64,000 bases of DNA, taken from contig CAWHXY010000004.1 in NCBI GenBank assembly GCA_963833575.1, forward strand, positions 768,001-832,000. Direction: 5' to 3'. Positions 30,302-41,676 of the stretch are shown here, in pieces. The number at the start of each line of letters is the position of its first letter. Position 1 is the first letter of the stretch. The stretch is from Candidatus Bathyarchaeota archaeon. GTDB taxonomy: Archaea; Thermoproteota; Bathyarchaeia; Bathyarchaeales; Bathycorpusculaceae. The notes under the pieces were generated by a model that worked only from the letters and a program-made list of their open reading frames with translations, had not been told where the DNA came from and made no database searches. Made by a program: the position numbers and the translations under genes.

Positions 30302-31754
30302 ATGAGGCACTTGCCAAGAAGTCCCAGGACACATGAGGCTAGAACTTTCAGGCCGGATCGGTTATTCTCTGAACGCGCGCAACTGCTCAAAGATATTGCC
30401 ACTGTTGAAGCTATTGCTAGGCGGAAAATTAAATCTGAAACTGGCGATATTGCTAAATTTCTGGTTGATTACTGCAAACTTAAGCCGTACAAGCATACAC
30501 TTGACATTGCCAAATTGTATTCTGATTATCAATTCATGGCTTTACGTTTTCCTAGGCAGACTGACAAGAGCACTACCGTTGGCGCTTTGATTTTGCAGGA
30601 TGCTTGGGAACATCCGGATCTCTACATTGGATTTGTTGGACCAAGCTGGCGCCAAACTAAACTCAATGTTCGGCGGGTGGCTGGTTTTTGCCGAAATCTT
30701 CCTTCGCAAGGACTTCATGTTCAGAGAACAAGAATAACCCTTCCAAATGGCAGTGTGATTGAGGCTTTCCCAAATAACGCTGACACAATAAGAGGCAACA
30801 CTTTTGACAGGTTATGGTGGGATGAAACCAACTTCACACCCAACGATGAAGACCTGTACGATGCAATCTTGTTCACAATGAGCACCAAAAAAAGAGGCAA
30901 AACTAATTGCAACCAGCACACCTTTCAATTCTGATTCTCTGTTTTGGAAAATGTGCAACCACGATGACTTTGCAGATTTCGGGCGATACAACATTTCTTG
31001 GGAGCAAGCTATCGAACCAAATGGTCCACTAAGTACAACAATAATTGAAAAAATAAAGCGGCAGTTTAGTAATGACTCGGCGAGGTGGCGCCGCGAAATG
31101 GAAGCTGAATGGGCAGACGACGAAGACGTCTGGCTAACCCAAAGCCTCATCGTAAGCTGCATCGACAGCACACTAATCCCCTACGACTTCCACAGCACTC
31201 CACTGCGCAGCGAATTTTACATCGGCGTTGACTTTGGCAAAGAACGCGACTACAGCATAGTAGTTGTAGTTGAAAAGATAGGCCATATCGTGAGGGTGGT
31301 TCACGTTCACCGCTTCCCCCTACATTCAGAGTACGCAAGTGTCATCGGTTACGTTAAAAGCCTACAAGACCGTTGGAAAGGCATTGAGTCTGTTTATGCA
31401 GACGTTACAGGAGTTGGAAACTACATTGTTGAAGACATGTTCCGCAGCGGCATTGAGGGAATAAATGGCATAACTTTTACAGTTCAATCCAAAGAAGAAA
31501 TGGCCAATATCCTTCGAGAAAAGATGCGAGCTGGCGAAATAAAAATTCCATATGTACCCGCAAGAAAGCTGGGAGACATCGACTTAACATCAGAGTTAAA
31601 CGTTGAAAGGTACGAGCTCATGAAAACTGGACACTTAGGATTTAGCCACCCTGAAGGAACACATGACGATGTCTTCTGGAGTATAGCCCTTGCAGTTCTA
31701 GGTTCAGTTAGAACACCAATGCCGGGTATAGGCGTTGGTTTTATTCCGCATTAA
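30302..31754 (+). pseudogene. Phage terminase large subunit, frameshifted
   Basis: PRQTDKST (Walker A with G>D), IRGNTFDRLWWDE, then a one-base shift in A-runs at 30887-30902 into LIATSTPF; nuclease motifs GVDFG, ADVTGVG and HDDVFWSIALA. Confidence 0.85.
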
Positions 31755-31854: not shown

Positions 31855-31980
31855 AATTTAACAGTAAATAGATAGTAAGGCGAGTCCAACTGGCTAACGA
31901 TAGTTACTCAAACTTCAAAATAACTAAAGAAGAGTGTAACAGCATTCAGTCCTCTAAAAAGCATTGGAGCAAAAGAAAAT

Positions 31981-32090
31981 GGGCTGAGTAGGCTCTGGTT
32001 AATATTCACGATACAAGCCATAGTTTCGTGGTGACGCATTTGCATTTGCGTTTTTCTCCTATATTCTGTGCCGGAGCCTCAGCAAACCCT
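31981..32090 (+). ncRNA. Structured repeat element E1 (BHB-like closing stem)
   Basis: GGGCTGAGTAGGCTCTGG...TTTTCTCCT...CCGGAGCCTCAGCAAACCCT; homologous to E2 and E3. Confidence 0.65.
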
Positions 32091-32174
32091 GTAGAAGAGC
32101 GCTAAATTGTGGTTGCAGTTGTGCAGTCACAGAGTCTTATAGGCATGCTTTTACAAAATTAAGATCGGTGTTTT

Positions 32175-32462
32175 ATGTTGGAAAAAAGTATGATGAAATA
32201 TCAAGTTATGATCAAAACGATTTCGGGAAAAGGCGGCGAGTTCTGGGAGGCGTTCCAAAAGATGCCTACCGATCCAATGAAGGGAGTAATGATAGAATCT
32301 TCATGGAGCCTATTCGGATACTGGGATTTCGTCATTTTCTTCAAAGCCGACAGCAATGAAAACAGCCTGCACTTCGTTGGCGAGGTCTTGCGAAAGATAC
32401 CTGGCATAGCTGAAACAAGCACTTCACCGATGACTATGCTAAAAGAACACAAAATGATGTAG
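32175..32462 (+). CDS. Stand-alone Lrp/AsnC ligand-binding (GYD-like) domain protein
   Basis: WSLFGYWDFV...LRKIPGIAETSTS. Confidence 0.7.
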   Translation: MLEKSMMKYQVMIKTISGKGGEFWEAFQKMPTDPMKGVMIESSWSLFGYWDFVIFFKADSNENSLHFVGEVLRKIPGIAETSTSPMTMLKEHKMM

Positions 32463-32777
32463 ACCCCTTCTGTCTTGTTTCCTTATTCTTTTTCTTTTTC
32501 GTTATTCCAAACCCGTTTTTTTAACCGCAATTCAAAAGAAAAAAAATCTAATTCTAATGCTCGCAAGTTTGATCTTAAATCTTTAGACGGAAAATAAATC
32601 GCCACCTTTAATCAAATCTAACAAATATGCCTGAAGAATTAAAATACATCAAATATCTGTTTCAAAAAAATGAAAACAGCAAAAAGAAAGTCAGCTTCAG
32701 ATACGGTCAAATTAATAATAACTCTCATGTAAAAAATGAGAATTAATTAATCTGAAAGAGATAACTGAGGAAAACAA

Positions 32778-33284
32778 ATGTTTAGAAATCCGGAAGAAAT
32801 GCGGAGACGGCTAAACGAAATAGTGGAAAAGTTTCGCCAAAAAGGAGCTACATCTCCAGAAAGAGCTCTGACCATTCAAGAATTGGGTTTGCCGCCCCGT
32901 TTCGAACAAGCCATGCATCGCAGGCTAGGTCAAACGGGAATTATTGTGGAAATAAACAACAAGTATTATCTAAATGAAGATCGGCTAAAACAAATTCAGG
33001 AACAAAGGTCCAATTCAGCCTCTGGTGGCTACGGCGGTGGGAACAGGCAGCAGCCTCCGTCATGGCTACGTTACGCTGGAATTTTGCTTATGTTACCTAT
33101 CGGCCTAATTGTCGTGGTCGTGCTATACTTCCTTTTTGCAAACACTGGAGCAGGATTTTACCAAGGAGAACTTCTAATCATACTTCTGGTTATCTTGTTA
33201 GCCGTGTTTGCTGCTCGAATGCTATTTTGGCGATCACGAAGAAGATATTGGCGTCAATACGGGCAAAACAATTATCCACAATAA
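32778..33284 (+). CDS. Hypothetical protein: wHTH-like N-terminus + two C-terminal TM helices
   Basis: GATSPERALTIQELGL...GIIVEINNKYYL, Gly-rich linker, two hydrophobic segments. Confidence 0.7.
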   Translation: MFRNPEEMRRRLNEIVEKFRQKGATSPERALTIQELGLPPRFEQAMHRRLGQTGIIVEINNKYYLNEDRLKQIQEQRSNSASGGYGGGNRQQPPSWLRYAGILLMLPIGLIVVVVLYFLFANTGAGFYQGELLIILLVILLAVFAARMLFWRSRRRYWRQYGQNNYPQ

Positions 33285-33553
33285 CATTCCCTCTATATTG
33301 AAAATAATCTTTTGTTTCATTCTTTTCAGTAGATTAGGCTCTTAGAAATATTATTTTGTTAGTATTTCAGAGTCAAAAATCAGAAGAAATTTTGTTCTGA
33401 AGGAAAGGACAAAGAAAAACCTCAAAGGCGTGTGGGGGGGCCAAAGAAAGAGTTTTTTTGAAAAGACGAAAAGGTACCAAAAAGTAAGTCCTAAATCTAT
33501 ATATTGGTGTTGTTCAGAATGTTTTGATTAGAACTATAACTATTGGTGAGCAA

Positions 33554-33949
33554 ATGAGTAAACCAGTCGATGTCGGAGAATTACGCGTTGGCGGCTACAT
33601 GATGATTGAAGGCGAACCATGCCGCATAGTCGACATTGCCAAATCTAAACCAGGAAAACACGGATCAGCCAAAGCAAGAATTGTCGCAATCGGCGTCTTT
33701 GATAAACAAAAGAGACAATTCGTAAAACCAGTTGATCTTGGCGCTGAGGTACCTATAATTGATAAAAGGGCAGGACAAGTTTTCGCAGTTAATCCAACAG
33801 GCATTCAAATTATGGACTTGGAAACCTACGAGTACCTAGATGCTCCGTTTCCAGAAGAAGATGAGGTTCCTAAAGCCAAGCTTACTCCAGGCACAGAAAT
33901 TGAGTACTGGAGAATTCTGGGCAGAGTAAAGATCGTTAGAGCAAAATAA
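33554..33949 (+). CDS. eif5a: Translation factor aIF-5A
   Basis: Hypusine motif SKPGKHGSAK; ATG at 33554 after GGTGA SD. Confidence 0.95.
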   Translation: MSKPVDVGELRVGGYMMIEGEPCRIVDIAKSKPGKHGSAKARIVAIGVFDKQKRQFVKPVDLGAEVPIIDKRAGQVFAVNPTGIQIMDLETYEYLDAPFPEEDEVPKAKLTPGTEIEYWRILGRVKIVRAK

Positions 33950-34190
33950 TAGATTATTTAACTTCCAACTTTTCCCTTATATTGATTATTTTTAACTATA
34001 ATTTAGTGCAAAAAAAGGATTGCGGTGGTGTCTCCATTAGGGGAGAGTTCAAAACCCTCACTGCATCAAATATTAAGCAAACATTATTGACTGAACATAA
34101 TTTGCTTTCACGCAAGAGAAATAGCGGAATTACAATATCGTACTTGCCTGCTTCGGGTGAGGGTTGTCCCCTGTAAACTAGTGAGGCTTG

Positions 34191-34472
34191 TTACAGGTAG
34201 GTAAGTCCCATGCGTTTCATGAAATCAAGGATCTTTTCGTACTCCCGGAGATATTGTTTACCTTTTTCAGTAAGTTTAAGCGACGTTTCATCCTCAATAA
34301 AACCAAGCTCTTTAAGTTCTGTTATGTAGCTTTTTAGCCGATCAAAGGGAACGTTTATTCGCACTTGAATATGCGTTAGAACGACTCTTTCTCTTTCACT
34401 ATCTTGGCTTTTCAGCGCTGACAAAAGATCCCCGTATATCTTCATCTTGTCTCTGCGAGGAATTGTCTTCAT
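34191..34472 (-). CDS. Small winged-helix transcription regulator
   Basis: RRDKMKIYGDLL...LTHIQVRINVPFDRLKSYITELKELGFI...LTEKGKQYL. Confidence 0.85.
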   Translation of the reverse strand: MKTIPRRDKMKIYGDLLSALKSQDSERERVVLTHIQVRINVPFDRLKSYITELKELGFIEDETSLKLTEKGKQYLREYEKILDFMKRMGLTYL

Positions 34473-34473
34473 T

Positions 34474-35169
34474 TTATCCCCTTTCTTTGTCTGAACTGTA
34501 GAAGGTTCGATAGCTGACAAAAAGAAAGATAGCTAAACCTACAAAAGTAGTAACCAAGGATCCCACAAATGCCGAAAAGCTTGAATCAATATACCAAAAG
34601 AGTAACGTGTATTGACCTATTGCAAGAAAAATAAAACCGAAAGGAATCCAAATCGTGGTTGGATCGAGATTCTTGACATGACTTCGGAGCGTGTAGATTG
34701 AAATATAGGCGAGACAGATTACATTGAAAATCCTCAGGTACACATTAGCTTGCGAGTAACCTTCGAAAGCAAATTGTGGAGCAACAAAAGCAAGTAGAAA
34801 TGAAATGGCGACCGCAATAATTAACAGACTAATAGTTGTCTCTCCTAACAGCTTGCTACTGTTTGATTTCCTGTTTGAAAATAAGTATGTAGTTGCAAGG
34901 AATACAAACGCAAATGTTCTTGTTAGTTGTGGAAGCCACATTAATTTAGGGTCAAACCCTAGCGGGGAGTATGCTAGGGCTGCAAGAGCGTTTGATATTC
35001 CCAGAAAAGCAAATCCGAGCGGTAAACCTAGGTAACTTCCCTCCCTAGTCAGTTTATACGGTTTTGCCATGAACCTTACAATAACAAAACAAAGAATTGT
35101 CGCGACAACCTCTACTATCATCCGCTCTGTGGGATACATGTTAGCAGACATAGTGCTCAACTTATGCAT
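34474..35169 (-). CDS. 7-TM membrane protein, possible sensor
   Basis: Seven hydrophobic segments; stop 1 nt before the wHTH start, suggesting an operon. Confidence 0.75.
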   Translation of the reverse strand: MHKLSTMSANMYPTERMIVEVVATILCFVIVRFMAKPYKLTREGSYLGLPLGFAFLGISNALAALAYSPLGFDPKLMWLPQLTRTFAFVFLATTYLFSNRKSNSSKLLGETTISLLIIAVAISFLLAFVAPQFAFEGYSQANVYLRIFNVICLAYISIYTLRSHVKNLDPTTIWIPFGFIFLAIGQYTLLFWYIDSSFSAFVGSLVTTFVGLAIFLFVSYRTFYSSDKERG

Positions 35170-35253
35170 TCTTTCTATAAGATATTTTCTCTTATTTCGA
35201 TAATTAGTCTAAAACCAACACGTTTGGTTGTAATTAAAAAAAGTTTATCATTT

Positions 35254-35292
35254 TTTTGTATTCACGATACGTGAGTGAGTCTTATTAGCTGT
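35254..35292 (+). promoter_or_regulatory. Conserved promoter block with TCAC-N5-GTGA palindrome and TATA
   Basis: 34/39 identical to 38421-38459. Confidence 0.7.
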
Positions 35293-35333
35293 TCTCGTCA
35301 GTGAAGGGTACTATGAATTTAGGAGAAAAAAAC

Positions 35334-38078
35334 ATGAAAAATTTAAGACTCAAGATATTTTCGATGATGGCTTTGTTTCTAATGCTATCTTTTGTAATTC
35401 CCTTTATGGTTACACCAATGGCTAGCGCACATACACCGGCATACCAAATTCCAACTTATGCTTTCTGTAATGTTGCGCCTAACCCTGCAGGTGTTGGACA
35501 GTCTGTTAACGTTGGCTTCTGGCTCGGTCTACCCCCACCTACGGCAGGAACTATTTACGGTGACAAATGGACTGGCATGACAGTCAAAGTTACCAAACCA
35601 GACAAAAGCACTGAGACCTTAGGACCATTTACATCCGACGACACAGGCGGATCACACACCGAATATACTCCCAGCCAACTGGGCAATTATACATTCCAAA
35701 TGAGCTATCTTGGACAAACATTAACGGGCGCTAATCCCCCACCTACCGGTTATTCTGCCGCAATAGCTGCATTCATCAATGATTCCTATCTACCTAGCAC
35801 CAGCAACATAGCAACTCTAACAGTGCAGCAAGAACCCGTTCCTGCTATTCCTCAAACTCCACTTCCAACAAACTACTGGACCCGCCCAATAGAATCAGTC
35901 AATGATTATTGGTACAGCATTAGCGGAAACTGGCTTGGACTAGGTGTACTATTTAGTGCTAATACTGGAATGTATAACGCAACAGGAAACTACAATCCTT
36001 ACACTACGGCGCCTACAACGGCTCACATCATGTGGACAAAACCTGAGACTTTCGGAGGCTTAATCGGTGGAGAATTCGGTGGGAGCGATACAAGCAATTA
36101 CTACTCAACCAGACAGTATGAGAGAATGTTCCAGCCAATAATTATGAACGGTGTTCTCTATTACGAACAATATCCGGGAAGCTCGAATAATCCCACAGGA
36201 TGGATTGCAGTCAACTTGAAGACAGGACAAACAATTTGGACTAACAATGCCCAAAACTTAGGCGGTGGTTCCCCAGCACAAAGCGCCTTAACTTCAACCG
36301 GCTTAGTTACGTCTCTACGCTGTGGTCAAACACTCAACTATATAACGCCAAACCAATATGGAGCCTTAGCATACCTATGGAGCACAGGAACGCCAATCGG
36401 AATCAATGCTGCAGCAGGAACAACAACATGGAATATGTTTGACGCCGTAACAGGGCAATACATTCTCAGCGTCGTCAACGGCAGTTCAATGGGCAACCTC
36501 CTTGAAGATAATGGAGGAGACTTAATCGGCTACTATACCAACGCTACTGTTGGCACACAAATAGTCAATGGGCAACGTGTCACTAATCCTTCCGGTGGAG
36601 CAATGTTAGAATGCTGGAACTCAACACAATGTATTATTGCTGGAACCAACGGCGCAGCAGCTTGGATGTGGAGACCCACACAAAACGGTCAAATACCCTT
36701 TGGTCTCGGGTTAATGTGGGCGCAACCATTAGCTACTAACATTTCAGGTGTCCCTCTGCCTTATTCTACAATCGCAGCTGTGTCTAGCGCAACTCTTTCA
36801 CTCCCTGCTGGAGCCTACACAACCGGCGGTGCCCAACCGAATAGTGGCGTGCTATTTTTGAGTTCAGTAGCAACAACCGGCGCTTCAAGCTATAACGCGG
36901 GATTCATCATTGAAGCTGGCTACAGTTCTGACACTGGTCAACAACTATGGATAGTTAACAGGACAGAAACACCATATACCAGAGTAGACTTCTCACAAAC
37001 TTCAAACGGCATCTTCGTAGAAATCAACCAGGATACAGCTGCATACACAGGCTACAGCATTATAACAGGTCAACAACTATGGGGACCATTCACACTTCCT
37101 AATGCGAACGCATACAACAGCATCGGCAGCTATTACGGCCAAGTCGCTAACGGCACACTGTATCTGAGCAGTTTTGGAGGAGACATATATAAAATTAATA
37201 TTCAGACAGGAGCGATCATCTGGCAAACAAACACCAACGCACTCTCAGGTCCCGCTGGCTCTGACACTCCCTATGGAGTTTGGCCAATGTGGCAATTCGG
37301 AAACCCAGGAGCAATCGCAGACGGAATGCTATTCCTCGGCGAAGGCCATGAGTACAGCCCACCGCTATTTCGTGGAGCAAACCTCATTGCAGTTAACCTA
37401 ACCACTGGACAGCTCGTATGGGAAGATATGGCTTTTGATGTAGACGGCGGCACAGCGATCTCCGATCAAGTACTGGTGGCTGAAAGCGCATATGACAACC
37501 AAATCTACGCTTATGGCACAGGACCAACTGCTATCACCGTTGATGCACCTAGCGTCGGCGTAACAACATCTACACCTGTAACAATACGCGGAACACTGAC
37601 AGACATATCTGCAGGCTCAAAGCAGGAAGCAGTTGCAGCAAACTTCCCACAAGGCCTTCCATGCGTTTCTGACCAAAGCATGACCCAATGGATGGAATAC
37701 GTCTACCAACAACAACCCATGCCTACTAACGTAACAGGTGTCCCCATCACTCTATCAGTCACAGACTCAAACGGCAACTGCTACAACATAGGTACCACAA
37801 GCACTGATGCAAAGGGCTTCTATAGCTTCAATTGGACACCCACAATCTCAGGCAGCTTCACAGTAACAGCAACCTTCGCTGGAACACAATCATATTATGG
37901 ATCATCAGCAGATACCGCCTTCTACGCAAGCCCCGTAACAACAGCAACTTCTACGCCCGCTCCAGTAACAGCTAACTATGCAACAACAACCGACTTCATG
38001 ATAGGAATAACTGCAATCATTGTAGTAGTCATTGTTTGCGTAGCAATAGCAATAGTGATGCTAAGAAAACGACCATAA
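35334..38078 (+). CDS. Large secreted, C-terminally membrane-anchored protein with Ig-like and PQQ-like beta-propeller regions (paralog 1)
   Basis: Signal peptide ending ASA/HTP, repeated AxxxxTGxxxW motifs, Thr-rich linker, TM + RKRP; SD AGGAG before ATG 35334. Confidence 0.85.
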   Translation: MKNLRLKIFSMMALFLMLSFVIPFMVTPMASAHTPAYQIPTYAFCNVAPNPAGVGQSVNVGFWLGLPPPTAGTIYGDKWTGMTVKVTKPDKSTETLGPFTSDDTGGSHTEYTPSQLGNYTFQMSYLGQTLTGANPPPTGYSAAIAAFINDSYLPSTSNIATLTVQQEPVPAIPQTPLPTNYWTRPIESVNDYWYSISGNWLGLGVLFSANTGMYNATGNYNPYTTAPTTAHIMWTKPETFGGLIGGEFGGSDTSNYYSTRQYERMFQPIIMNGVLYYEQYPGSSNNPTGWIAVNLKTGQTIWTNNAQNLGGGSPAQSALTSTGLVTSLRCGQTLNYITPNQYGALAYLWSTGTPIGINAAAGTTTWNMFDAVTGQYILSVVNGSSMGNLLEDNGGDLIGYYTNATVGTQIVNGQRVTNPSGGAMLECWNSTQCIIAGTNGAAAWMWRPTQNGQIPFGLGLMWAQPLATNISGVPLPYSTIAAVSSATLSLPAGAYTTGGAQPNSGVLFLSSVATTGASSYNAGFIIEAGYSSDTGQQLWIVNRTETPYTRVDFSQTSNGIFVEINQDTAAYTGYSIITGQQLWGPFTLPNANAYNSIGSYYGQVANGTLYLSSFGGDIYKINIQTGAIIWQTNTNALSGPAGSDTPYGVWPMWQFGNPGAIADGMLFLGEGHEYSPPLFRGANLIAVNLTTGQLVWEDMAFDVDGGTAISDQVLVAESAYDNQIYAYGTGPTAITVDAPSVGVTTSTPVTIRGTLTDISAGSKQEAVAANFPQGLPCVSDQSMTQWMEYVYQQQPMPTNVTGVPITLSVTDSNGNCYNIGTTSTDAKGFYSFNWTPTISGSFTVTATFAGTQSYYGSSADTAFYASPVTTATSTPAPVTANYATTTDFMIGITAIIVVVIVCVAIAIVMLRKRP

Positions 38079-38100
38079 GATGAACCCAACGAAAACCACT

Positions 38101-38117
38101 ATCCCTTTCCCTTTTTT
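38101..38117 (+). terminator. Pyrimidine/T-tract terminator
   Basis: CCCTTTCCCTTTTTT after the stop; similar tract at 41530-41548 after paralog 2. Confidence 0.5.
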
Positions 38118-38141
38118 AGTCAAACTTTAGGTAGATTAATA

Positions 38142-38253
38142 AGGGCTGAGAAGGCTCTGGCTGAAATTCATGAAAATAGCCATAGTTTCGTGATGCATTG
38201 ACATTTTTCTTTTCTCCTAAAGAAGAAAATGTGCCAGAGTCTCAGCAAACCCT
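38142..38253 (+). ncRNA. Structured repeat element E2
   Basis: AGGGCTGAGAAGGCTCTGG...TTTTCTCCT...CCAGAGTCTCAGCAAACCCT. Confidence 0.65.
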
Positions 38254-38420
38254 GTTCTGTTCTGCGCATTCAAAAATTGATTACTCAGCCACGATTTTGA
38301 ACTTGGAATAATTCAAGTCTTTATAGATTCCAGACCCAATTGTTGCGGATTCATTAAATTTTTCTCAATTGATATTAGCTGTGAGTGTCATTGTTTGTTT
38401 TTTTTTAAATGGACAACTTA

Positions 38421-38459
38421 TTTTGCACTCACGATAGGTGAGGGAGGCTTATTAGCTGT
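38421..38459 (+). promoter_or_regulatory. Conserved promoter block with CTCAC-N5-GTGAG palindrome and TATA
   Basis: 34/39 identical to 35254-35292. Confidence 0.7.
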
Positions 38460-38485
38460 CTCTGCAAGTTGGCTATTTACAAAAT

Positions 38486-41400
38486 ATGGAGAAGAAGAAA
38501 ATGAATTTAAAAACTAAAACTTCAGCTATCGTGATTGCTATATTGATGATAATTTCTATCGGAGCTTCAACATCGCTTATGCCAACTACAAAAGCACATA
38601 CACCATCCTGGCAGATTCCAACATACGCTTACATTGTCGCAGAACCTAGCCCAATAGGTGTCGGTCAAAGAATTCAAATTTACATGTGGCTTGACACAGT
38701 ATATGGAGCAGCCGGCGGAACTACAGCCGCTATAGGCACAAATGCCTCAACAGTTAGCGCAGCATTGCTAGCAAACAGCTACAGATTCCACAACTACAAA
38801 CTTACAATTACGGCTCCAGACGGAACAAACTCAACACAAACTTTCGCAACTGTCCAAGACACGACATCAAACCAATACGCAACATACGTCCCATCCCAAA
38901 CTGGCACTTACACTTTCACATTTAACTATCCAGGCGAACCATACGTTGGTTACGAAAAATCAATACTCGTTAACGATACTTACCTGCCAAGTTCTGCTTC
39001 AACAACAGTCACCGTTCAGCAAACTGCCATACCTCTACCGGTAAATAGCTATCCTCTTCCCGAAGCATACTGGACCCATCCAATCTACGGTGAAAACACC
39101 GACTGGTGGACAATCTCATCAAACTGGTTAGGTTCAGGTAACCCCGTTCCAGCAGGCTACACTAGCTCAACACTGTATCATGGAGACGCAGTAGGACCAC
39201 AAACAGGACACGTAATGTGGACAAAGCCACTTCAATTCGGAGGAGTTGTCGGCGGTAACCAATTTGTCGCAGGCGGTTCAAATCCAAACGGAGCAGTTCC
39301 AGGCGCAGCCTACTTCGACGGTGTTTCGTATCAGCCAAGATTCACAAACCCAATCATAATCAATGGATACCTATTCTACACTGAAGTATCATCATTTACA
39401 GGTCCCACAAGCGGGCCAACCGATGCAGTTGATCTTCGCACAGGGCAAGTTCTTTGGTCCAAGATGATTCCACCACTATCATTTGGCTACATATTCAACC
39501 TCTGGGATCCAGACCAACACGGAGTCTATCCACCAGTATTAGTTGCCCAAATCGGAGGCGGCGTTACCGGTCTGCCTGTTACATGGATGTTGATTGACGC
39601 CTACACAGGCGTAGGTCTCTTCAATGTAACTGATATTCCAGGTTTCGCAGGACAAACAGGCCAAACCGTAGGCGGTCAACCAGCCACAGCTCTTACAACA
39701 TTTACAGCAGCAGGACCAAACGGCGAACCACTAAGATACGTCTTTGAAAACGCAGGCACATCAACAAATCCAAACTGGTACCTTGCTGAATGGAACATGT
39801 CCAAACTCTGGCTATATGACGTCAACCCATACACAGGCGGCGGGAGCCTCTCACCTGACGTTGTCAATGTTACTGTTGGAAACGGCGGAGGAAACCTTGT
39901 TGTTAACATGCCCATCCCACTTGCAGGCGAAACAGGCACTACTCCAACTGGAGGGTCGGTCTTTATCCCATATGGTTCTACAATAACCGTTAACGGCAGC
40001 ACCACAACCGCTCAAGGCAATGCCATATCCTCAGCTAACCCAACAGGCAAGTACGACTGGAACGTTTCGGTGGCTTGGCTAAACACGATGCCTCTGCAAC
40101 CCGCATATAACGTTAACACGGGCGGAATAGTTCCACAAGTTATGCAGGGAAACTGTCCAACATTCCTCGCAGCAGGCGGAGTTAACCCAGTATCAATAGT
40201 AGCAGCTAATACCGGAGACATTATGCTCTGCAGAAACGGCACTCTGCCCACTGGTTACGCAACAACTACCACAGGCTATCCACAACTTCCATACACAATG
40301 TTCGCAGTCAACCTCAATTCTTCTCGCGGAGCGATCGGTTCAATTCTCTGGATGAAGAACTATGATCCACCAGCAGGCAACATCACTTTGCAACAGAGCG
40401 CAGTCGATTACCAGAACCGTGTCTTTATTCTAAGTTACAGAGAGACAATGCAGTGGATAGCTTACAATCTTGACACCGGCGCGTTAATGTGGGGTCCAAC
40501 GGTACCGCAAGCAGCCTTTGACTACTATGGTACACCAGGTGTTCCTACCTTGACAGCTACACTTGCATATGGCAAACTCTATAGCATGTCATTTGCAGGA
40601 ATAATGTACACCTACGACATCATGACAGGAAATCTTCTATGGACATATGGAAATGGTGGTGAAGGTAACTCAACTTTCGCAGGCTTTGCGACACCCTACG
40701 GGGTCTATCCAACTTTCGTACAATCTATTGCCAACGGAATAGTCTACATAGCAACTGATGAACACACAATCCCTGATCCATTGTATAAAGGCTCAACAAC
40801 TGCAGGTATCAATGCTACTACAGGACAAGAAATTTGGACGCTTTCAGACTATCCAGCTGAATGGTCATCCAGCGGCACAGCATACGTTGTTGCGGACGGC
40901 TATGCAACATTCATGAATAGCTACGACAACAACATCTACAGTGTAGGCAGAGGACCAAGTGCAATTACAGTTACAGCACCAAACTTTGGCGTATCTTTTG
41001 GCACACCAGTAATAATACGCGGTACAGTCATGGACAAATCTGCAGGAACAATGCAAACACAGCAAACAGCTGATTTTCCAAACGGTGTTCCAGTTGCTTC
41101 TGATGCTAGTATGAAGGATTGGATGGGTTATGTTTACCAACAGAAGCCGCTTCCAACCAACTTTACCGGCGTTCAGGTAACAATTGACGTTGTAGATTCT
41201 AATGGTAACTACCGAAATATTGGAACTGCAACCACTGATGCTACTGGCATGTATAGTCTTGCATGGACACCTAACATCTCAGGCAACTACAATGTTATCG
41301 CAACTTTCCACGGAACCAACGGTTACTGGCCATCATACGCAGAGAGCACATTTGCCGTAACAAACGCACCATCATCAACTAACGCTCCAACACCAACACC

Positions 41401-41509
41401 AATTTCAACCGCTGATCAGTACTTCCTACCAGTATCAATTGCAATAATTATCGCAATAGTGATAGTCGGCGCTGTTCTAGCTCTGCTAATGCTTAGAAAA
41501 CATCCATAA
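38486..41509 (+). CDS. Large secreted membrane-anchored beta-propeller-like protein (paralog 2)
   Basis: Same architecture as paralog 1 (HTPSWQIPTYAY, YWTHPI, WTKP, WMGYVYQQKP, TM + RKHP); start may be 38501. Confidence 0.85.
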   Translation: MEKKKMNLKTKTSAIVIAILMIISIGASTSLMPTTKAHTPSWQIPTYAYIVAEPSPIGVGQRIQIYMWLDTVYGAAGGTTAAIGTNASTVSAALLANSYRFHNYKLTITAPDGTNSTQTFATVQDTTSNQYATYVPSQTGTYTFTFNYPGEPYVGYEKSILVNDTYLPSSASTTVTVQQTAIPLPVNSYPLPEAYWTHPIYGENTDWWTISSNWLGSGNPVPAGYTSSTLYHGDAVGPQTGHVMWTKPLQFGGVVGGNQFVAGGSNPNGAVPGAAYFDGVSYQPRFTNPIIINGYLFYTEVSSFTGPTSGPTDAVDLRTGQVLWSKMIPPLSFGYIFNLWDPDQHGVYPPVLVAQIGGGVTGLPVTWMLIDAYTGVGLFNVTDIPGFAGQTGQTVGGQPATALTTFTAAGPNGEPLRYVFENAGTSTNPNWYLAEWNMSKLWLYDVNPYTGGGSLSPDVVNVTVGNGGGNLVVNMPIPLAGETGTTPTGGSVFIPYGSTITVNGSTTTAQGNAISSANPTGKYDWNVSVAWLNTMPLQPAYNVNTGGIVPQVMQGNCPTFLAAGGVNPVSIVAANTGDIMLCRNGTLPTGYATTTTGYPQLPYTMFAVNLNSSRGAIGSILWMKNYDPPAGNITLQQSAVDYQNRVFILSYRETMQWIAYNLDTGALMWGPTVPQAAFDYYGTPGVPTLTATLAYGKLYSMSFAGIMYTYDIMTGNLLWTYGNGGEGNSTFAGFATPYGVYPTFVQSIANGIVYIATDEHTIPDPLYKGSTTAGINATTGQEIWTLSDYPAEWSSSGTAYVVADGYATFMNSYDNNIYSVGRGPSAITVTAPNFGVSFGTPVIIRGTVMDKSAGTMQTQQTADFPNGVPVASDASMKDWMGYVYQQKPLPTNFTGVQVTIDVVDSNGNYRNIGTATTDATGMYSLAWTPNISGNYNVIATFHGTNGYWPSYAESTFAVTNAPSSTNAPTPTPISTADQYFLPVSIAIIIAIVIVGAVLALLMLRKHP

Positions 41510-41571
41510 AGGCGAAAACAATGAAAACTATTTTCCTTTCCTTTTTTTAGTTTCAATTTGAGCTTTAAGCT

Positions 41572-41676
41572 GGGGCTGAGTAGACTCTGGTTAAATTTCA
41601 CAAAATAGCCGTAGTCGTAATGGAGCATTTGCATTTGCTCGTTTTCTCCTTGTTTTCCAGAGTCTCAGCAAACCCT
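41572..41676 (+). ncRNA. Structured repeat element E3
   Basis: GGGGCTGAGTAGACTCTGG...TTTTCTCCT...CCAGAGTCTCAGCAAACCCT. Confidence 0.65.

What the first reader, a model, noticed from the sequence alone, without database searches (positions are those of the whole stretch)
31981..41676. Three-copy ~110-nt structured non-coding element (E1 31981-32090, E2 38142-38253, E3 41572-41676)
Seen: all copies share GGGCTGAG-WA-GRCTCTGG ... AGCCRTAGT ... TTTTCTCCT ... CCRGAGYCTCAGCAAACCCT. Ends pair in a long stem whose substitutions keep pairing (GGCTCTGG/CCGGAGCC, GGCTCTGG/CCAGAGTC, GACTCTGG/CCAGAGTC), and an inner hairpin covaries (ACGCA/TGCGT in E1, GAGCA/TGCTC in E3, same TTTGCATT loop). The variant pairs are G-U only on the + strand. 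Two copies lie 63-64 nt downstream of the large surface-protein genes. I recognise no known family. Inference: a new RNA family tied to the surface-protein paralogs.
Basis: partly seen in the sequence, partly recalled or inferred. Interest (0 to 1): 0.85.

Follow-up and report, generated by a model that had tools for sequence, protein, structure and literature searches.

The report
Excisable antisense RNA behind surface-protein genes
A roughly 110-base RNA element repeated behind the surface-protein genes of peat-dwelling Bathyarchaeia has ends shaped like the cut sites of archaeal tRNA introns and a core complementary to the ribosome-binding start of those genes, so it may be cut out, perhaps as a circle, to control their translation.

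Summary
E1-E3 belong to a family with 26-28 copies in this 2.75-Mb Bathyarchaeia genome. I collected 137 distinct copies from related genomes. No Rfam family matches.

In the own genome, 18 of 28 copies lie 60-75 nt behind the stop codon of a ~900-aa secreted paralog, on the same strand and after a T-run. In a gene-anchored sample, 36 of 36 copies share the gene's strand.

- The terminal stem is a bulge-helix-bulge motif: a 5-bp outer helix, a 4-bp helix, two 3-nt bulges and a 9-bp inner helix. 117 of 137 copies meet it strictly, with covariation. It has the geometry of this genome's own tRNA introns. One RNA-library contig joins the two predicted cut sites. That joint was found in 0 of 61 genus genomes.
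- The exposed pyrimidine core is the reverse complement of the Shine-Dalgarno-to-AUG region shared by the paralogs. In a second family, core and gene start differ together.

Best reading, about 50%: a splicing-endonuclease-excised, probably circular, ~94-nt antisense RNA. Excision rests on one contig. Regulation is inferred only.

The parts
31981..32090 (+). E1, an orphan copy with no family gene upstream. The outer helix extends to about 31978-32091.
   Evidence: (117.5 bits).
38143..38253 (+). E2, 64 nt behind the stop of the gene ending at 38078.
   Evidence: 100.3 bits.
41573..41676 (+). E3, 63 nt behind the stop of the gene ending at 41509.
   Evidence: 101.8 bits.
31989..32085 (+). RNA predicted to be excised from E1 (97 nt), from the 3rd base of bulge 1 to the 2nd base of bulge 2.
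   Evidence: Inference from the BHB geometry. Circular fold -24.5 kcal/mol.
38151..38248 (+). RNA predicted to be excised from E2 (98 nt).
   Evidence: In table 5c a contig from a related copy joins ...CAGCAA to N9-AGG, which aligns from 38152.
41581..41671 (+). RNA predicted to be excised from E3 (91 nt).
32042..32060 (+). Anti-start core of E1 (GCATTTGCGTTTTTCTCCT).
   Evidence: duplexes of -21.3 and -20.2 kcal/mol with the two window gene starts.
38201..38218 (+). Anti-start core of E2 (ACATTTTTCTTTTCTCCT).
   Evidence: 15 pairs and one mismatch with TGGAGAAGAAGAAAATGA of the gene at 38501, -16.5 kcal/mol..
41631..41650 (+). Anti-start core of E3.
   Evidence: -17.0 kcal/mol with the gene at 38501.
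35334..38078 (+). Surface-protein paralog A. The ORF is listed from 35301; the likely start is 35334, which has a Shine-Dalgarno sequence and a signal-peptide-like N-terminus. It carries a PQQ_2 beta-propeller, an Ig-like domain and a C-terminal membrane anchor ending RKRP.
   Evidence: (PQQ_2 E 4.2e-8).
38501..41509 (+). Surface-protein paralog B. The ORF is listed from 38486; the likely start is 38501.
   Evidence: (PQQ_2 E 1.5e-8).
35321..35336 (+). Translation start region of paralog A (AGGAGAAAAAAACATG).
38487..38503 (+). Translation start region of paralog B (TGGAGAAGAAGAAAATG).
38112..38117 (+). T-run behind paralog A. It is a likely archaeal terminator and also lies at TATA-box distance from E2.
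   Evidence: (the 13 element-less paralogs keep a T-run).
41542..41548 (+). T-run behind paralog B.
   Evidence: RNA-library contigs of two runs stop at 41510 and 41536 (table 8).

Best explanation
Each copy is a self-contained RNA module placed just behind the T-run terminator of a surface-protein paralog, on the gene's strand.

Its two ends fold into a bulge-helix-bulge (hBHBh') motif:
- an outer helix of 5 bp, made of three flanking bases plus G1 G2, paired with CCCN plus one flanking base;
- a central helix of 4 bp, GCUG with CAGC;
- a 3-nt bulge A-G/A-N on the 5' strand and a 3-nt bulge AAA on the 3' strand;
- an inner helix of about 9 bp.

This is the substrate shape of the archaeal tRNA-splicing endonuclease. 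I propose that the endonuclease cuts in both bulges and that RtcB closes the released piece into a circle with a median length of 94 nt.

The released RNA presents a mostly unpaired pyrimidine tract, ...GCAUUUUUCUUUUUCUCCU..., which is antisense to the Shine-Dalgarno-spacer-AUG region shared by the paralog family. It would pair with those mRNAs in trans across the whole family and mask ribosome binding. The result would be a brake on total surface-protein synthesis, or a way to coordinate it.

Shown by computation: the family, its link to the genes, the BHB geometry with covariation, the complementarity and its specificity, and the presence of the enzymes. Shown by one RNA contig only: a joint at the two predicted cut sites. 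Inferred: circularity as opposed to linear ends, pairing in the cell, and any regulatory effect or its direction.
For: Family and context.
- There are 26-28 copies in the own genome. 18 of 28 lie 60-75 nt behind the stop of an 825-1074-aa ORF on the same strand.
- In 79 gene-anchored loci from named Bathyarchaeia MAGs there are 36 matches, all on the gene's strand. Where a full-length gene lies upstream, gaps are mostly 52-87 nt, with one of 319 nt.
- The element was found in 21 of 24 other genomes of the genus and in 32 of 151 genomes of the order, in 7 of 63 genera.

BHB.
- 117 of 137 distinct copies have 4 of 4 central pairs, at least 2 of 3 outer pairs and at least 5 of 6 inner pairs. Bulge 2 is AAA in 115 of those 117.
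- The terminal stem is 91-98% paired and 11 of its 13 pairs change on both sides. 0 of 500 shuffles reach the observed values, counted over the 18 pairs tested.
- Outer pairs 3-5 reach into the flanks and beat shuffles (0, 1 and 3 of 2000 shuffles reach them). Pair 6 is random.
- Only the register with a 4-bp central helix fits the divergent lineages: position 10 with -12 is AU 79, GC 10, GU 14.
- The own genome's tRNA-Arg(CCG) intron folds in the same order: h5, H4, B3, h' ... h', H4, B3, h5.
- The genome has two tRNA_int_endo ORFs (96 and 70.5 bits) and one RtcB (588 bits).
- In run X10 a contig of depth 17.8 runs to 38228, then reads TTTCTGTGCCAGAGCCTCAGCAAT, then resumes at 38152. That is CAGCAA joined to N9-AGG, between the 2nd and 3rd base of each bulge (table 5c).
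- That joint occurs in 0 of 61 genus genomes at up to 1 mismatch. Of 78 exact hits in metagenome contigs, 0 are in element context.

Antisense core.
- The 17-nt start motif AGGAGAAAAGAAAAATG, allowing up to 2 edits, has 39 hits in the genome. 12 lie in elements, all on the strand opposite the element. 11 lie at starts of family genes, out of about 31 such genes. 8 lie at other ORF starts and 8 at none.
- Element-to-family-start duplexes average -16.9 kcal/mol, against -13.7 for 477 other Shine-Dalgarno-led starts (Mann-Whitney p 6e-4) and -11.8 for reversed cores.
- The anti-Shine-Dalgarno 4-mer has an unpaired probability of 0.73, against 0.42 for the rest of the element. This covers 121 of 137 copies.
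- In genome G040, from another family, the gene starts read GAAGGTGAAAAAATGAAAAAAC and the reverse-complemented cores read TTGAAGGTGAAAAAATGAAAAAACC. Own-genome matches exceed cross-genome ones: 8.9 against 6.6 nt, and 11.0 against 9.5 nt.

Precedent. Anti-RBS sRNAs are known in Methanosarcina (PMC5867862, passages). [quoted passage not shown]
Against: - Excision rests on a single contig from one run, from a related strain. I saw it only through table 5c; its row in table 5 was among those not shown. Contigs cannot show strand, and the library may contain DNA. RT template switching between linear molecules would give the same joint. That would still imply ends at the cut sites, but not a circle.
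- No exon-exon joint was seen.
- Neither the own-genome test nor the test across genomes shows elements matching their own gene's start better than other family starts. In 17 own-genome pairs the values are -15.5 against -16.1 kcal/mol, permutation p 0.79. In 25 pairs from other genomes they are -13.2 against -14.4, p 0.98. Within the genus there is therefore no pairwise covariation. The co-change of core and start rests on essentially one independent lineage, with possibly a second in L175/L177.
- The family start region is purine-rich and of low complexity. Some unrelated starts pair as well: the background minimum is -25.0 kcal/mol, and 6 of 17 family starts are no better than the background median.
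- 58 of 137 copies contain a run of at least 5 T, which could terminate archaeal transcription inside the element.
- The gene's own T-run lies between gene and element, so co-transcription is unproven. The promoter-like T/A box upstream carries little information, 0.1-0.4 bits per position.
- The G-U over A-C bias is modest, 58 against 33.
- 13 of about 31 paralogs lack the element.
- A second register with a 6-bp helix, which would not be a BHB, is nearly as good in most copies of the genus.
Confidence: 0.5

Rival explanations
1. It is a selfish, intron-like BHB cassette. The module is cut out of whatever transcript carries it, so it is harmless, and it spreads or is carried along when the paralogs duplicate. 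Its antisense likeness to the gene start is a relic of its origin as an inverted copy of a family gene's 5' end, and it regulates nothing.
For: - The BHB geometry and the one joint fit this reading equally well.
- The reverse-complemented core looks like a complete start region, with a Shine-Dalgarno sequence, a spacer, ATG and first codons such as ATGCAAAT or ATGAAAAAACC, which are also found at family genes.
- There is no own-gene specificity.
- Intact orphan copies exist: E1 scores 117.5 bits, and C4:745038 scores 116.3 bits beside a gene remnant.
- Three copies lie within 900 nt in L044.
- 13 paralogs do without the element.
Against: - A relic should decay. Instead the anti-Shine-Dalgarno and anti-AUG letters are among the best-kept interior positions across 137 copies, and 118 of 137 keep a Shine-Dalgarno-to-ATG arrangement on the minus strand.
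- The core is preferentially unpaired.
- In the second family, core and gene start differ together in Shine-Dalgarno type and spacer length.
- There are no target-site duplications and no sign of insertion into other contexts.
- Element-less paralogs also lack the outer 'exon' halves of the motif, so there are no empty intron sites.
Confidence: 0.2
2. It is a linear 3'-end element of the paralog mRNAs, acting as a stabiliser, a terminator helper or a protein-binding site. The long stem protects the 3' end, and any pairing with the 5' start region happens in cis, as in icaR. The likeness to a BHB is a coincidence and the joint is an assembly or RT artefact.
For: - The element has a fixed place and strand behind the stop codon.
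- Depth in RNA libraries falls about ten-fold behind the genes but does not reach zero over the elements (table 2).
- In Staphylococcus aureus icaR, a 3' UTR motif pairs with the Shine-Dalgarno region of the same mRNA (PMC3868564, abstract).
- The alternative 6-bp register is nearly as good in most copies.
Against: - A T-run kept by all paralogs, with or without the element, lies between gene and element.
- Intact orphans exist without a gene.
- A coincidental BHB is unlikely. Two 3-nt bulges, a 4-bp helix and a 5-bp outer helix that covaries with the flanks are kept in 117 of 137 copies across two families, while the interior is rebuilt.
- The joint falls exactly at both canonical cut sites.
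- No cis-specific pairing was found.
Confidence: 0.15
3. It is a DNA-level repeat: either a MITE- or REP-like mobile element, or a recombination site whose inverted copy of the start region allows inversion or gene conversion among surface-protein paralogs.
For: - The element has inverted-repeat ends, many copies and sharp boundaries.
- An inverted copy of a 17-22-bp sequence that also sits at the 5' end of each gene would bracket the gene.
- Solitary half-elements exist at C4:323302, C4:104008 and C7:458491.
Against: - There are no target-site duplications (1.52 against 1.84 for shuffled partners) and no longer partner carrying the same arms.
- The element has one orientation and one position relative to one gene family.
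- The asymmetric bulges, the G-U excess and the covariation that reaches into unique flanks point to a folded single strand.
- No family gene carries the reverse-complemented arm in its 5' leader, as an inverted state would require (17 leaders read).
- Own-gene matches are no better than others.
Confidence: 0.07
4. The minus strand is the functional one. It would encode a small protein started by the Shine-Dalgarno-ATG, or act as a decoy that mimics the family's start region.
For: 118 of 137 copies have a Shine-Dalgarno-like sequence followed 4-14 nt later by ATG on the minus strand. Minus-strand folds of the three window copies are also below their shuffles.
Against: - The reading frame relative to the conserved arm is evenly spread (42, 39 and 37). 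Peptide lengths run from 1 to 74 aa with a median of 14, so nothing is conserved as protein.
- No sequence is conserved downstream of the element where a minus-strand promoter would sit.
- G-U pairs outnumber A-C pairs on the plus strand.
- The BHB bulge order exists only on the plus strand (inference).
Confidence: 0.03

Closest known systems
BHB (hBHBh') substrates of the archaeal tRNA-splicing endonuclease outside tRNA and rRNA: the cbf5 mRNA intron of Crenarchaeota and the 46-nt intron in the 5' UTR of Haloferax HVO_1309 (PMC7714728, passages read)
   Same: They share a 4-bp helix flanked by two 3-nt bulges between two helices. The excised piece is recovered as a circle, and the host RNA is neither a tRNA nor an rRNA.
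   Different: Those are single-copy introns inside one gene's transcript. Here there are about 26 copies per genome, each a module of its own behind a terminator. The module has conserved bulge letters and an interior that looks built to act after release. Cleavage has not been shown biochemically here.
Anti-RBS small RNAs of Methanosarcina mazei, sRNA154 (loop 2) and sRNA41 (review PMC5867862, passages read)
   Same: An exposed sequence complementary to ribosome-binding sites is proposed to mask translation initiation in an archaeon.
   Different: Those are single-copy, linear intergenic sRNAs with unrelated targets. Here a many-copy sibling family is wired to the very gene family it matches, and it is probably released by BHB cleavage.
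The icaR 3' UTR / 5' UTR interaction in Staphylococcus aureus (PMC3868564, abstract and outline read)
   Same: A pyrimidine motif downstream of the coding region is complementary to the Shine-Dalgarno region of the same gene.
   Different: icaR is bacterial. It acts in cis within one mRNA, has no BHB and creates an RNase III site. Here a terminator-like T-run separates gene and element, and no cis-specific match was found.
Circular tRNA introns that carry a function, such as the box C/D RNA in the tRNA-Trp intron, and the BHB-permuted SRP RNA of Thermoproteus (mentioned in PMC12558985 passages; PMC4731332 seen only as a search listing)
   Same: BHB processing is used to make a stable, functional non-coding RNA.
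   Different: The cargo, the genomic context and the copy number all differ.
Bacterial intergenic repeats with inverted ends (REP/BIME, ERIC, Correia elements) and MITEs (recalled, not searched for here)
   Same: They are short, many-copy, hairpin-forming elements between genes, often co-transcribed.
   Different: Those insert in many contexts, and MITEs leave target-site duplications. This element keeps one place and one strand behind one gene family and shows no duplications.

Membership tests
BHB (hBHBh') substrate of the archaeal splicing endonuclease | A central helix of 4 base pairs. | tested here: met
   GCUG with CAGC is 97.9% paired, and two of the four pairs show changes on both sides (helix 1). 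All 4 pairs form in 122 of 137 copies (tally).
BHB (hBHBh') substrate of the archaeal splicing endonuclease | Two 3-nt bulges on opposite strands, one at each end of the central helix, in the order h-H-B-h' ... h'-H-B-h. | tested here: met
   Bulge 1 is A-G/A-N and bulge 2 is AAA, in the same order as in the own genome's tRNA-Arg(CCG) intron. In most genus copies a rival register with a 6-bp helix is nearly as good, and only the divergent lineages decide for the 4-bp register. The definition was taken from PMC7714728.
BHB (hBHBh') substrate of the archaeal splicing endonuclease | Flanking helices h and h'. | tested here: met
   The inner helix has 9 pairs, 91-96% paired. The outer helix has 5 pairs, and pairs 3-5 lie in the flanks and beat shuffles (0, 1 and 3 of 2000).
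BHB (hBHBh') substrate of the archaeal splicing endonuclease | Cleavage in both bulges, followed by ligation to give a circular intron and joined exons. | tested here: inconclusive
   One RNA-library contig (run X10, depth 17.8) joins CAGCAA to N9-AGG (table 5c). The joint is absent from 61 genus genomes and from element contexts in metagenome contigs (0 of 78). No exon-exon joint was seen, and there is no enzyme assay.
BHB (hBHBh') substrate of the archaeal splicing endonuclease | The enzymes are present in the organism. | tested here: met
   There are two tRNA_int_endo ORFs of 203 and 198 aa and one RtcB. ARAGORN of 44 tRNAs with introns.
Any Rfam 15 family | A match at the family's gathering score. 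| tested here: not met
   There are 0 matches in the 64-kb window. In five element loci scanned at E<=1, the only hit is MIR9486 at 24.9 bits against a gathering score of 100.
MITE | Target-site duplications flanking terminal inverted repeats. | tested here: not met
   The mean flank match is 1.52 nt, against 1.84 +/- 0.28 for shuffled partners, over 21 copies.
MITE | An autonomous partner with the same ends, and insertion into varied contexts. | tested here: not met
   No arm pair lies 0.14-5 kb apart in the own genome. 18 of 28 copies sit behind one gene family, and 36 of 36 gene-anchored matches are co-oriented with the gene.
Trans-acting anti-RBS sRNA | An exposed stretch complementary to the Shine-Dalgarno/AUG region of target mRNAs. 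| tested here: met
   This is computational only.
Trans-acting anti-RBS sRNA | Expressed as a discrete small RNA that changes target translation. | not testable with these tools
   Only contigs of metatranscriptomes were available, without strand or end information.
3' UTR element pairing in cis with its own 5' UTR (icaR type) | The element is part of the same mRNA and matches its own start region. | tested here: not met
   Own-gene matches are no better than matches to other family members. A conserved T-run lies between gene and element. Co-transcription itself was not testable.

The most novel reading that the evidence does not exclude
Some Bathyarchaeia use the tRNA-splicing machinery to make a family of about 26 sibling circular RNAs per genome. 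Each is encoded behind a surface-protein paralog and each presents an antisense copy of the family's shared ribosome-binding start. Together they would form a circular-RNA network that sets how much, or which, of about 30 surface proteins is translated. This would be the first BHB-made regulatory circRNA family and the first described non-coding RNA system in this uncultured lineage.
Probability: 0.33. Interest if true: 0.92.

Novelty: new variant of a known kind. Interest (0 to 1): 0.82.

Why it matters
According to the passages I read in PMC7714728, BHB splice motifs outside tRNA and rRNA are known from only two single-copy cases: cbf5 mRNA and one haloarchaeal 5' UTR. A many-copy BHB module with a cargo that looks designed to act after release would widen what the archaeal splicing endonuclease is used for. 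It would also give a natural example of circular antisense regulators in prokaryotes.

It touches an open question in uncultured peat and sediment Bathyarchaeia as well. These genomes carry about 30 paralogs of a large secreted beta-propeller/Ig protein, which peat metatranscriptome contigs cover at depths of about 20-300. How they are controlled is unknown.

The prediction is directly testable with existing peat metatranscriptome reads by looking for back-splice junctions, and with two recombinant proteins. My searches found no paper describing such an element. Only 3 papers hold both 'Bathyarchae' and 'bulge-helix-bulge', and by their titles and abstracts they concern rRNA circularisation or the endonuclease in general. 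The library searched holds only open-access papers and preprints.

Tried and rejected
- **Small ORF on the minus strand.** Rejected. Frames are spread 42/39/37 and lengths run from 1 to 74 aa.
- **Short ORF on the plus strand starting at the ATG just before the element.** Only some copies have ATG or TTG there (one search lists AATGGG 16, GATGGG 5, TATGGG 3 and ATTGGG 5 of 129), and several have in-frame stops. Rejected by reading the sequences; no formal count was made.
- **Cis covariation between each element and its own gene's start.** Not found.
- **MITE.** No duplications and no partner.
- **Inversion of the gene between its start region and the inverted copy.** None of the 17 leaders read shows the arm in reverse orientation.
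- **Shared motif between gene leaders and the element.** The two window genes share a leader motif resembling the element's second hairpin, but the other 15 leaders do not.
- **Spliced-exon-like 12-mers in the own genome.** There are 5 hits at up to 1 mismatch. The two I read lie inside a pair of 483-aa ORFs and are chance matches.
- **The joint pattern in metagenome contigs.** There are 78 exact hits, about the number chance would give by my rough estimate, and none in element context. This collection may hold few RNA assemblies, so the result says little about RNA.
- **Parts of the laid stretch without contig cover** (for example 34217-35209) are not used as evidence.
- **Integron attC sites and diversity-generating retroelements.** Considered from memory and not tested. 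The elements are scattered rather than in cassette arrays, and they lie outside the coding region.
- **Promoter scan tool.** Not used, because it models bacterial sigma-70 sites.
- **Supplementary tables** of PMC7714728 and PMC12558985 (lists of circular RNAs) were not opened. They concern haloarchaea and should not bear on this lineage.
- **The structure-prediction, fold-search and protein-atlas tools and the large protein-database searches (search for homologous proteins, the search of protein representatives)** were not used.

Full report
**1. The observation**

The three copies are present as described. By the covariance model, E2 starts at 38143 and E3 at 41573. The quoted arm variants and the inner hairpin of E1 and E3 are real. 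E2 has a different hairpin, U-rich paired with A-rich.

E2 and E3 lie 64 and 63 nt behind the stops of two large ORFs. E1 lies 226 nt behind an unrelated ORF. Rfam has nothing at gathering score in the window. At E<=1 on five element loci it has only a chance hit, MIR9486 at 24.9 bits against a gathering score of 100.

**2. It is a large family**

The two-end pattern occurs 17 times in the window's own genome (2.75 Mb, 8 contigs) and 0 times for the reversed control. nhmmer finds 28 hits, 26 of them with E<1e-7. A covariance model built from 26 copies finds 27 in the own genome.

That model also finds matches in 21 of 24 other genomes of the genus and in one genome (G040) of another family. 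Across the order it hits 32 of 151 genomes and 7 of 63 genera: families f1 15/35, f7 15/35 and f6 1/25. These are samples searched with strict filters, so 'not found' does not mean absent.

Record titles of relatives name Candidatus Bathyarchaeota or Bathyarchaeia MAGs. Many isolate names refer to bog, fen or palsa, or to a project called SPRUCE. In all I collected 137 distinct copies.

**3. The tie to a gene family**

In the own genome, 18 of 28 copies lie 60-75 nt behind the stop of an 825-1074-aa ORF on the same strand. These ORFs are paralogs. Each has a signal-peptide-like N-terminus, a PQQ_2 beta-propeller (E 4e-8 and 1.5e-8), weak Ig-like hits, and a C-terminal hydrophobic stretch ending RKRP.

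tblastn finds 28 family loci, about 31 genes. 13 genes lack the element but keep a T-run about 25-35 nt behind the stop. I therefore read the T-run as the gene's terminator, on the established knowledge that oligo-T tracts end archaeal transcription.

In a sample anchored on the gene rather than on the element, 79 loci gave 36 matches, all on the gene's strand. Where a full-length gene lies upstream, gaps are mostly 52-87 nt, with one of 319 nt.

The end of the T-run lies 20-36 nt before the element in most of 108 copies, with a mode of 28. Conservation stops sharply at the element's 3' end.

The remaining copies are orphans. Some keep remnants of the gene's 3' end or of the spacer. Several are fully intact, for example E1 at 117.5 bits.

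**4. It is not a MITE and not coding**

Flank matches are no longer than with shuffled partners (1.52 against 1.84 +/- 0.28). No longer element bears the same arms.

The minus strand carries a Shine-Dalgarno-like sequence followed by ATG in 118 of 137 copies. The frame relative to the conserved arm is spread 42/39/37, and peptides run from 1 to 74 aa, so nothing is conserved as protein.

**5. The structure**

On 108 distinct copies, the 13 pairs of the terminal stem are 91-98% paired and 11 of them change on both sides. Over the 18 pairs tested, which include the second hairpin, 0 of 500 shuffles reach the observed values and slid controls give 12-42% paired. The second hairpin (CACGA/UCGUG) is 75% paired. 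That alignment was fitted to a model that held part of the stem, which favours it.

G-U cells outnumber A-C cells 58 to 33, a modest vote for the plus strand.

Two registers compete at the bulge. The divergent lineages fit only one of them. These are copies with GAAAGAGCUC...GAGCUCCAGC and copies with UGGG...CCCCAGC. Both fit only the register with a 4-bp helix GCUG/CAGC, a 3-nt bulge A-G/A-N and a 9-bp inner helix.

**6. The ends form a bulge-helix-bulge motif**

On the 3' strand, CAGC is followed by AAA and then CC(C). These last bases pair with G2, G1 and the base before the element.

Read 5' to 3' the order is: outer helix, 4-bp helix, 3-nt bulge, inner helix ... inner helix, 4-bp helix, 3-nt bulge, outer helix.

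[quoted passage not shown] The own genome's tRNA-Arg(CCG) intron folds in exactly this order, with splice sites between the 2nd and 3rd bulge base.

117 of 137 copies meet a strict test: 4 of 4 central pairs, at least 2 of 3 outer pairs and at least 5 of 6 inner pairs. Bulge 2 is AAA in 115 of those 117.

The outer helix reaches 3 nt into the upstream flank and 1 nt into the downstream flank. Pairs 3, 4 and 5 are paired in 98, 74 and 72 of 129 copies, against shuffled means of 81, 60 and 55. Only 0, 1 and 3 of 2000 shuffles reach those values. Pair 6 is random.

The genome has two tRNA_int_endo ORFs and one RtcB. PMC7714728 says the heteromeric enzyme, found mainly in TACK archaea, accepts a broad range of substrates. 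That this organism has that type is my inference from the two ORFs.

The predicted excised RNA has a median length of 94 nt. For E1 it spans 31989-32085, for E2 38151-38248 and for E3 41581-41671.

**7. RNA evidence**

24 metatranscriptome runs from peat, permafrost, wetland and soil hold 7-10% of the sampled words. I laid contigs of four of them. They are 90-99% like the window, so they come from related strains.

- They cover the two genes at summed depths of about 20-300.
- Depth falls about ten-fold behind gene B. Contigs of two runs stop at 41510 and 41536, near the T-run, which is a weak hint of termination there.
- The element regions are present at depth about 4-18 (tables 2, 4, 8).

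Table 5c lists one contig of run X10, depth 17.8. It runs to 38228, then reads TTTCTGTGCCAGAGCCTCAGCAAT, then resumes at 38152. This is the 3' arm of a related copy up to CAGCAA, joined to N9 (here T) and AGGCUCUGG of the 5' arm. The joint lies between the 2nd and 3rd base of each bulge. A circular excised RNA, or end-to-end copying of a linear one, would give exactly this.

I could not see the contig itself or its row in table 5. Contigs carry no strand, and DNA can be present in RNA libraries.

The joint pattern is in 0 of 61 genus genomes at up to 1 mismatch. Of 78 exact hits in metagenome contigs, none lies in element context.

**8. The core is antisense to the family's translation start**

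The paralogs' leaders differ from one another, but the last 20 nt or so before ATG are alike, for example uuAGGAGAAAAGAAAA|AUG. The element's best-kept interior letters...GCAUUUUUCUUUUUCUCCU..., are the reverse complement of that stretch.

The 17-nt motif, allowing up to 2 edits, has 39 hits in the genome:
- 12 lie in elements, all antisense to the element;
- 11 lie at starts of family genes;
- 8 lie at other ORF starts;
- 8 lie at no ORF start.

Duplex energies with 17 family starts average -16.9 kcal/mol. For 477 other Shine-Dalgarno-led starts the average is -13.7 (p 6e-4), and for reversed cores it is -11.8. The distributions overlap.

The anti-Shine-Dalgarno 4-mer is predicted unpaired with probability 0.73, against 0.42 for the rest of the element. 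This was measured in 121 of 137 copies. In E2, 15 pairs and one mismatch form with the start of the gene at 38501.

In G040, from another family, the starts use GGUGA with a short spacer, and the cores changed accordingly. That is one independent event, with possibly a second in L175/L177.

Elements do not match their own gene better than other family members. Any action would therefore be family-wide.

**9. What it most likely does**

Taken together, the two features kept across two families while the interior was rebuilt are the BHB ends and the exposed anti-start tract.

I therefore favour release by the splicing endonuclease, probably as a circle, followed by antisense masking of the paralogs' ribosome-binding starts. 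Whether the precursor comes from read-through of the T-run or from a promoter of its own is open. A T-rich then A-rich box lies at -35..-19 and G at -1 in 61% of copies, but the information content is low.

Rivals are a selfish intron-like cassette, a linear 3'-end element, a DNA repeat and a minus-strand function. They are weighed in their own sections.

**10. Comparison and novelty**

The motif belongs to a known kind. The many-copy, gene-linked module with an antisense cargo does not match anything I found (open-access library only). Its closest relatives in function are the archaeal anti-RBS sRNAs and the icaR 3' UTR. Its closest relatives in processing are the cbf5 and HVO_1309 introns.

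Noticed in passing
window 30951-31754 (+): The 267-aa ORF upstream of orphan copy E1 has a borderline Terminase_6C hit (22.2 bits against a cut-off of 22.6, E 1.5e-4). E1 may therefore sit at the edge of a provirus remnant.
   Followed up: no
window about 35260-35292 and 38426-38459 (+): The leaders of the two window paralogs share the motif CACGATA(C/G)GTGAG(T/G)GAG(T/G)CTTATTAGCTGT. Its first part resembles the 5' half of the element's second hairpin (TTCACGATACGTGA). The other 15 family leaders I read do not have it.
   Followed up: partly
10-16 nt upstream of most copies, e.g. window 31962-31970 and L059: The upstream flank often reads GCAATGGAGAAAA...(A/T)TG. This is a sense-strand look-alike of the family's start region and so is complementary to the element's own core. 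It could mask the core in the precursor. It is kept even in orphans that lack the T-run.
   Followed up: partly
own genome C4:323302 (-), C4:104008 (-), C7:458491 (-): Solitary half-elements: a 5' arm alone or a 3' arm alone.
   Followed up: no
L044 1501-1609, 2189-2293, 2320-2401: Three element copies lie within 900 nt in one related genome, two of them only 26 nt apart.
   Followed up: no
L063-L075 (genomes G040 and G007), just behind the gene stops: In these lineages the T-run sits inside a palindrome such as CTCCC-T7-GGGAG, so it would form a hairpin with a U loop. In the window's genome there is no such palindrome.
   Followed up: no
own genome, whole: ARAGORN calls introns in 8 of 44 tRNAs, several at non-canonical positions and up to 81 nt long.
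   Followed up: partly
window 38219-38231 (E2): Right after its anti-start tract, E2 carries AAAGAAGAAAATG, a sense copy of the start of the next gene (38501). The two form a hairpin with the anti-Shine-Dalgarno letters in the loop.
   Followed up: partly
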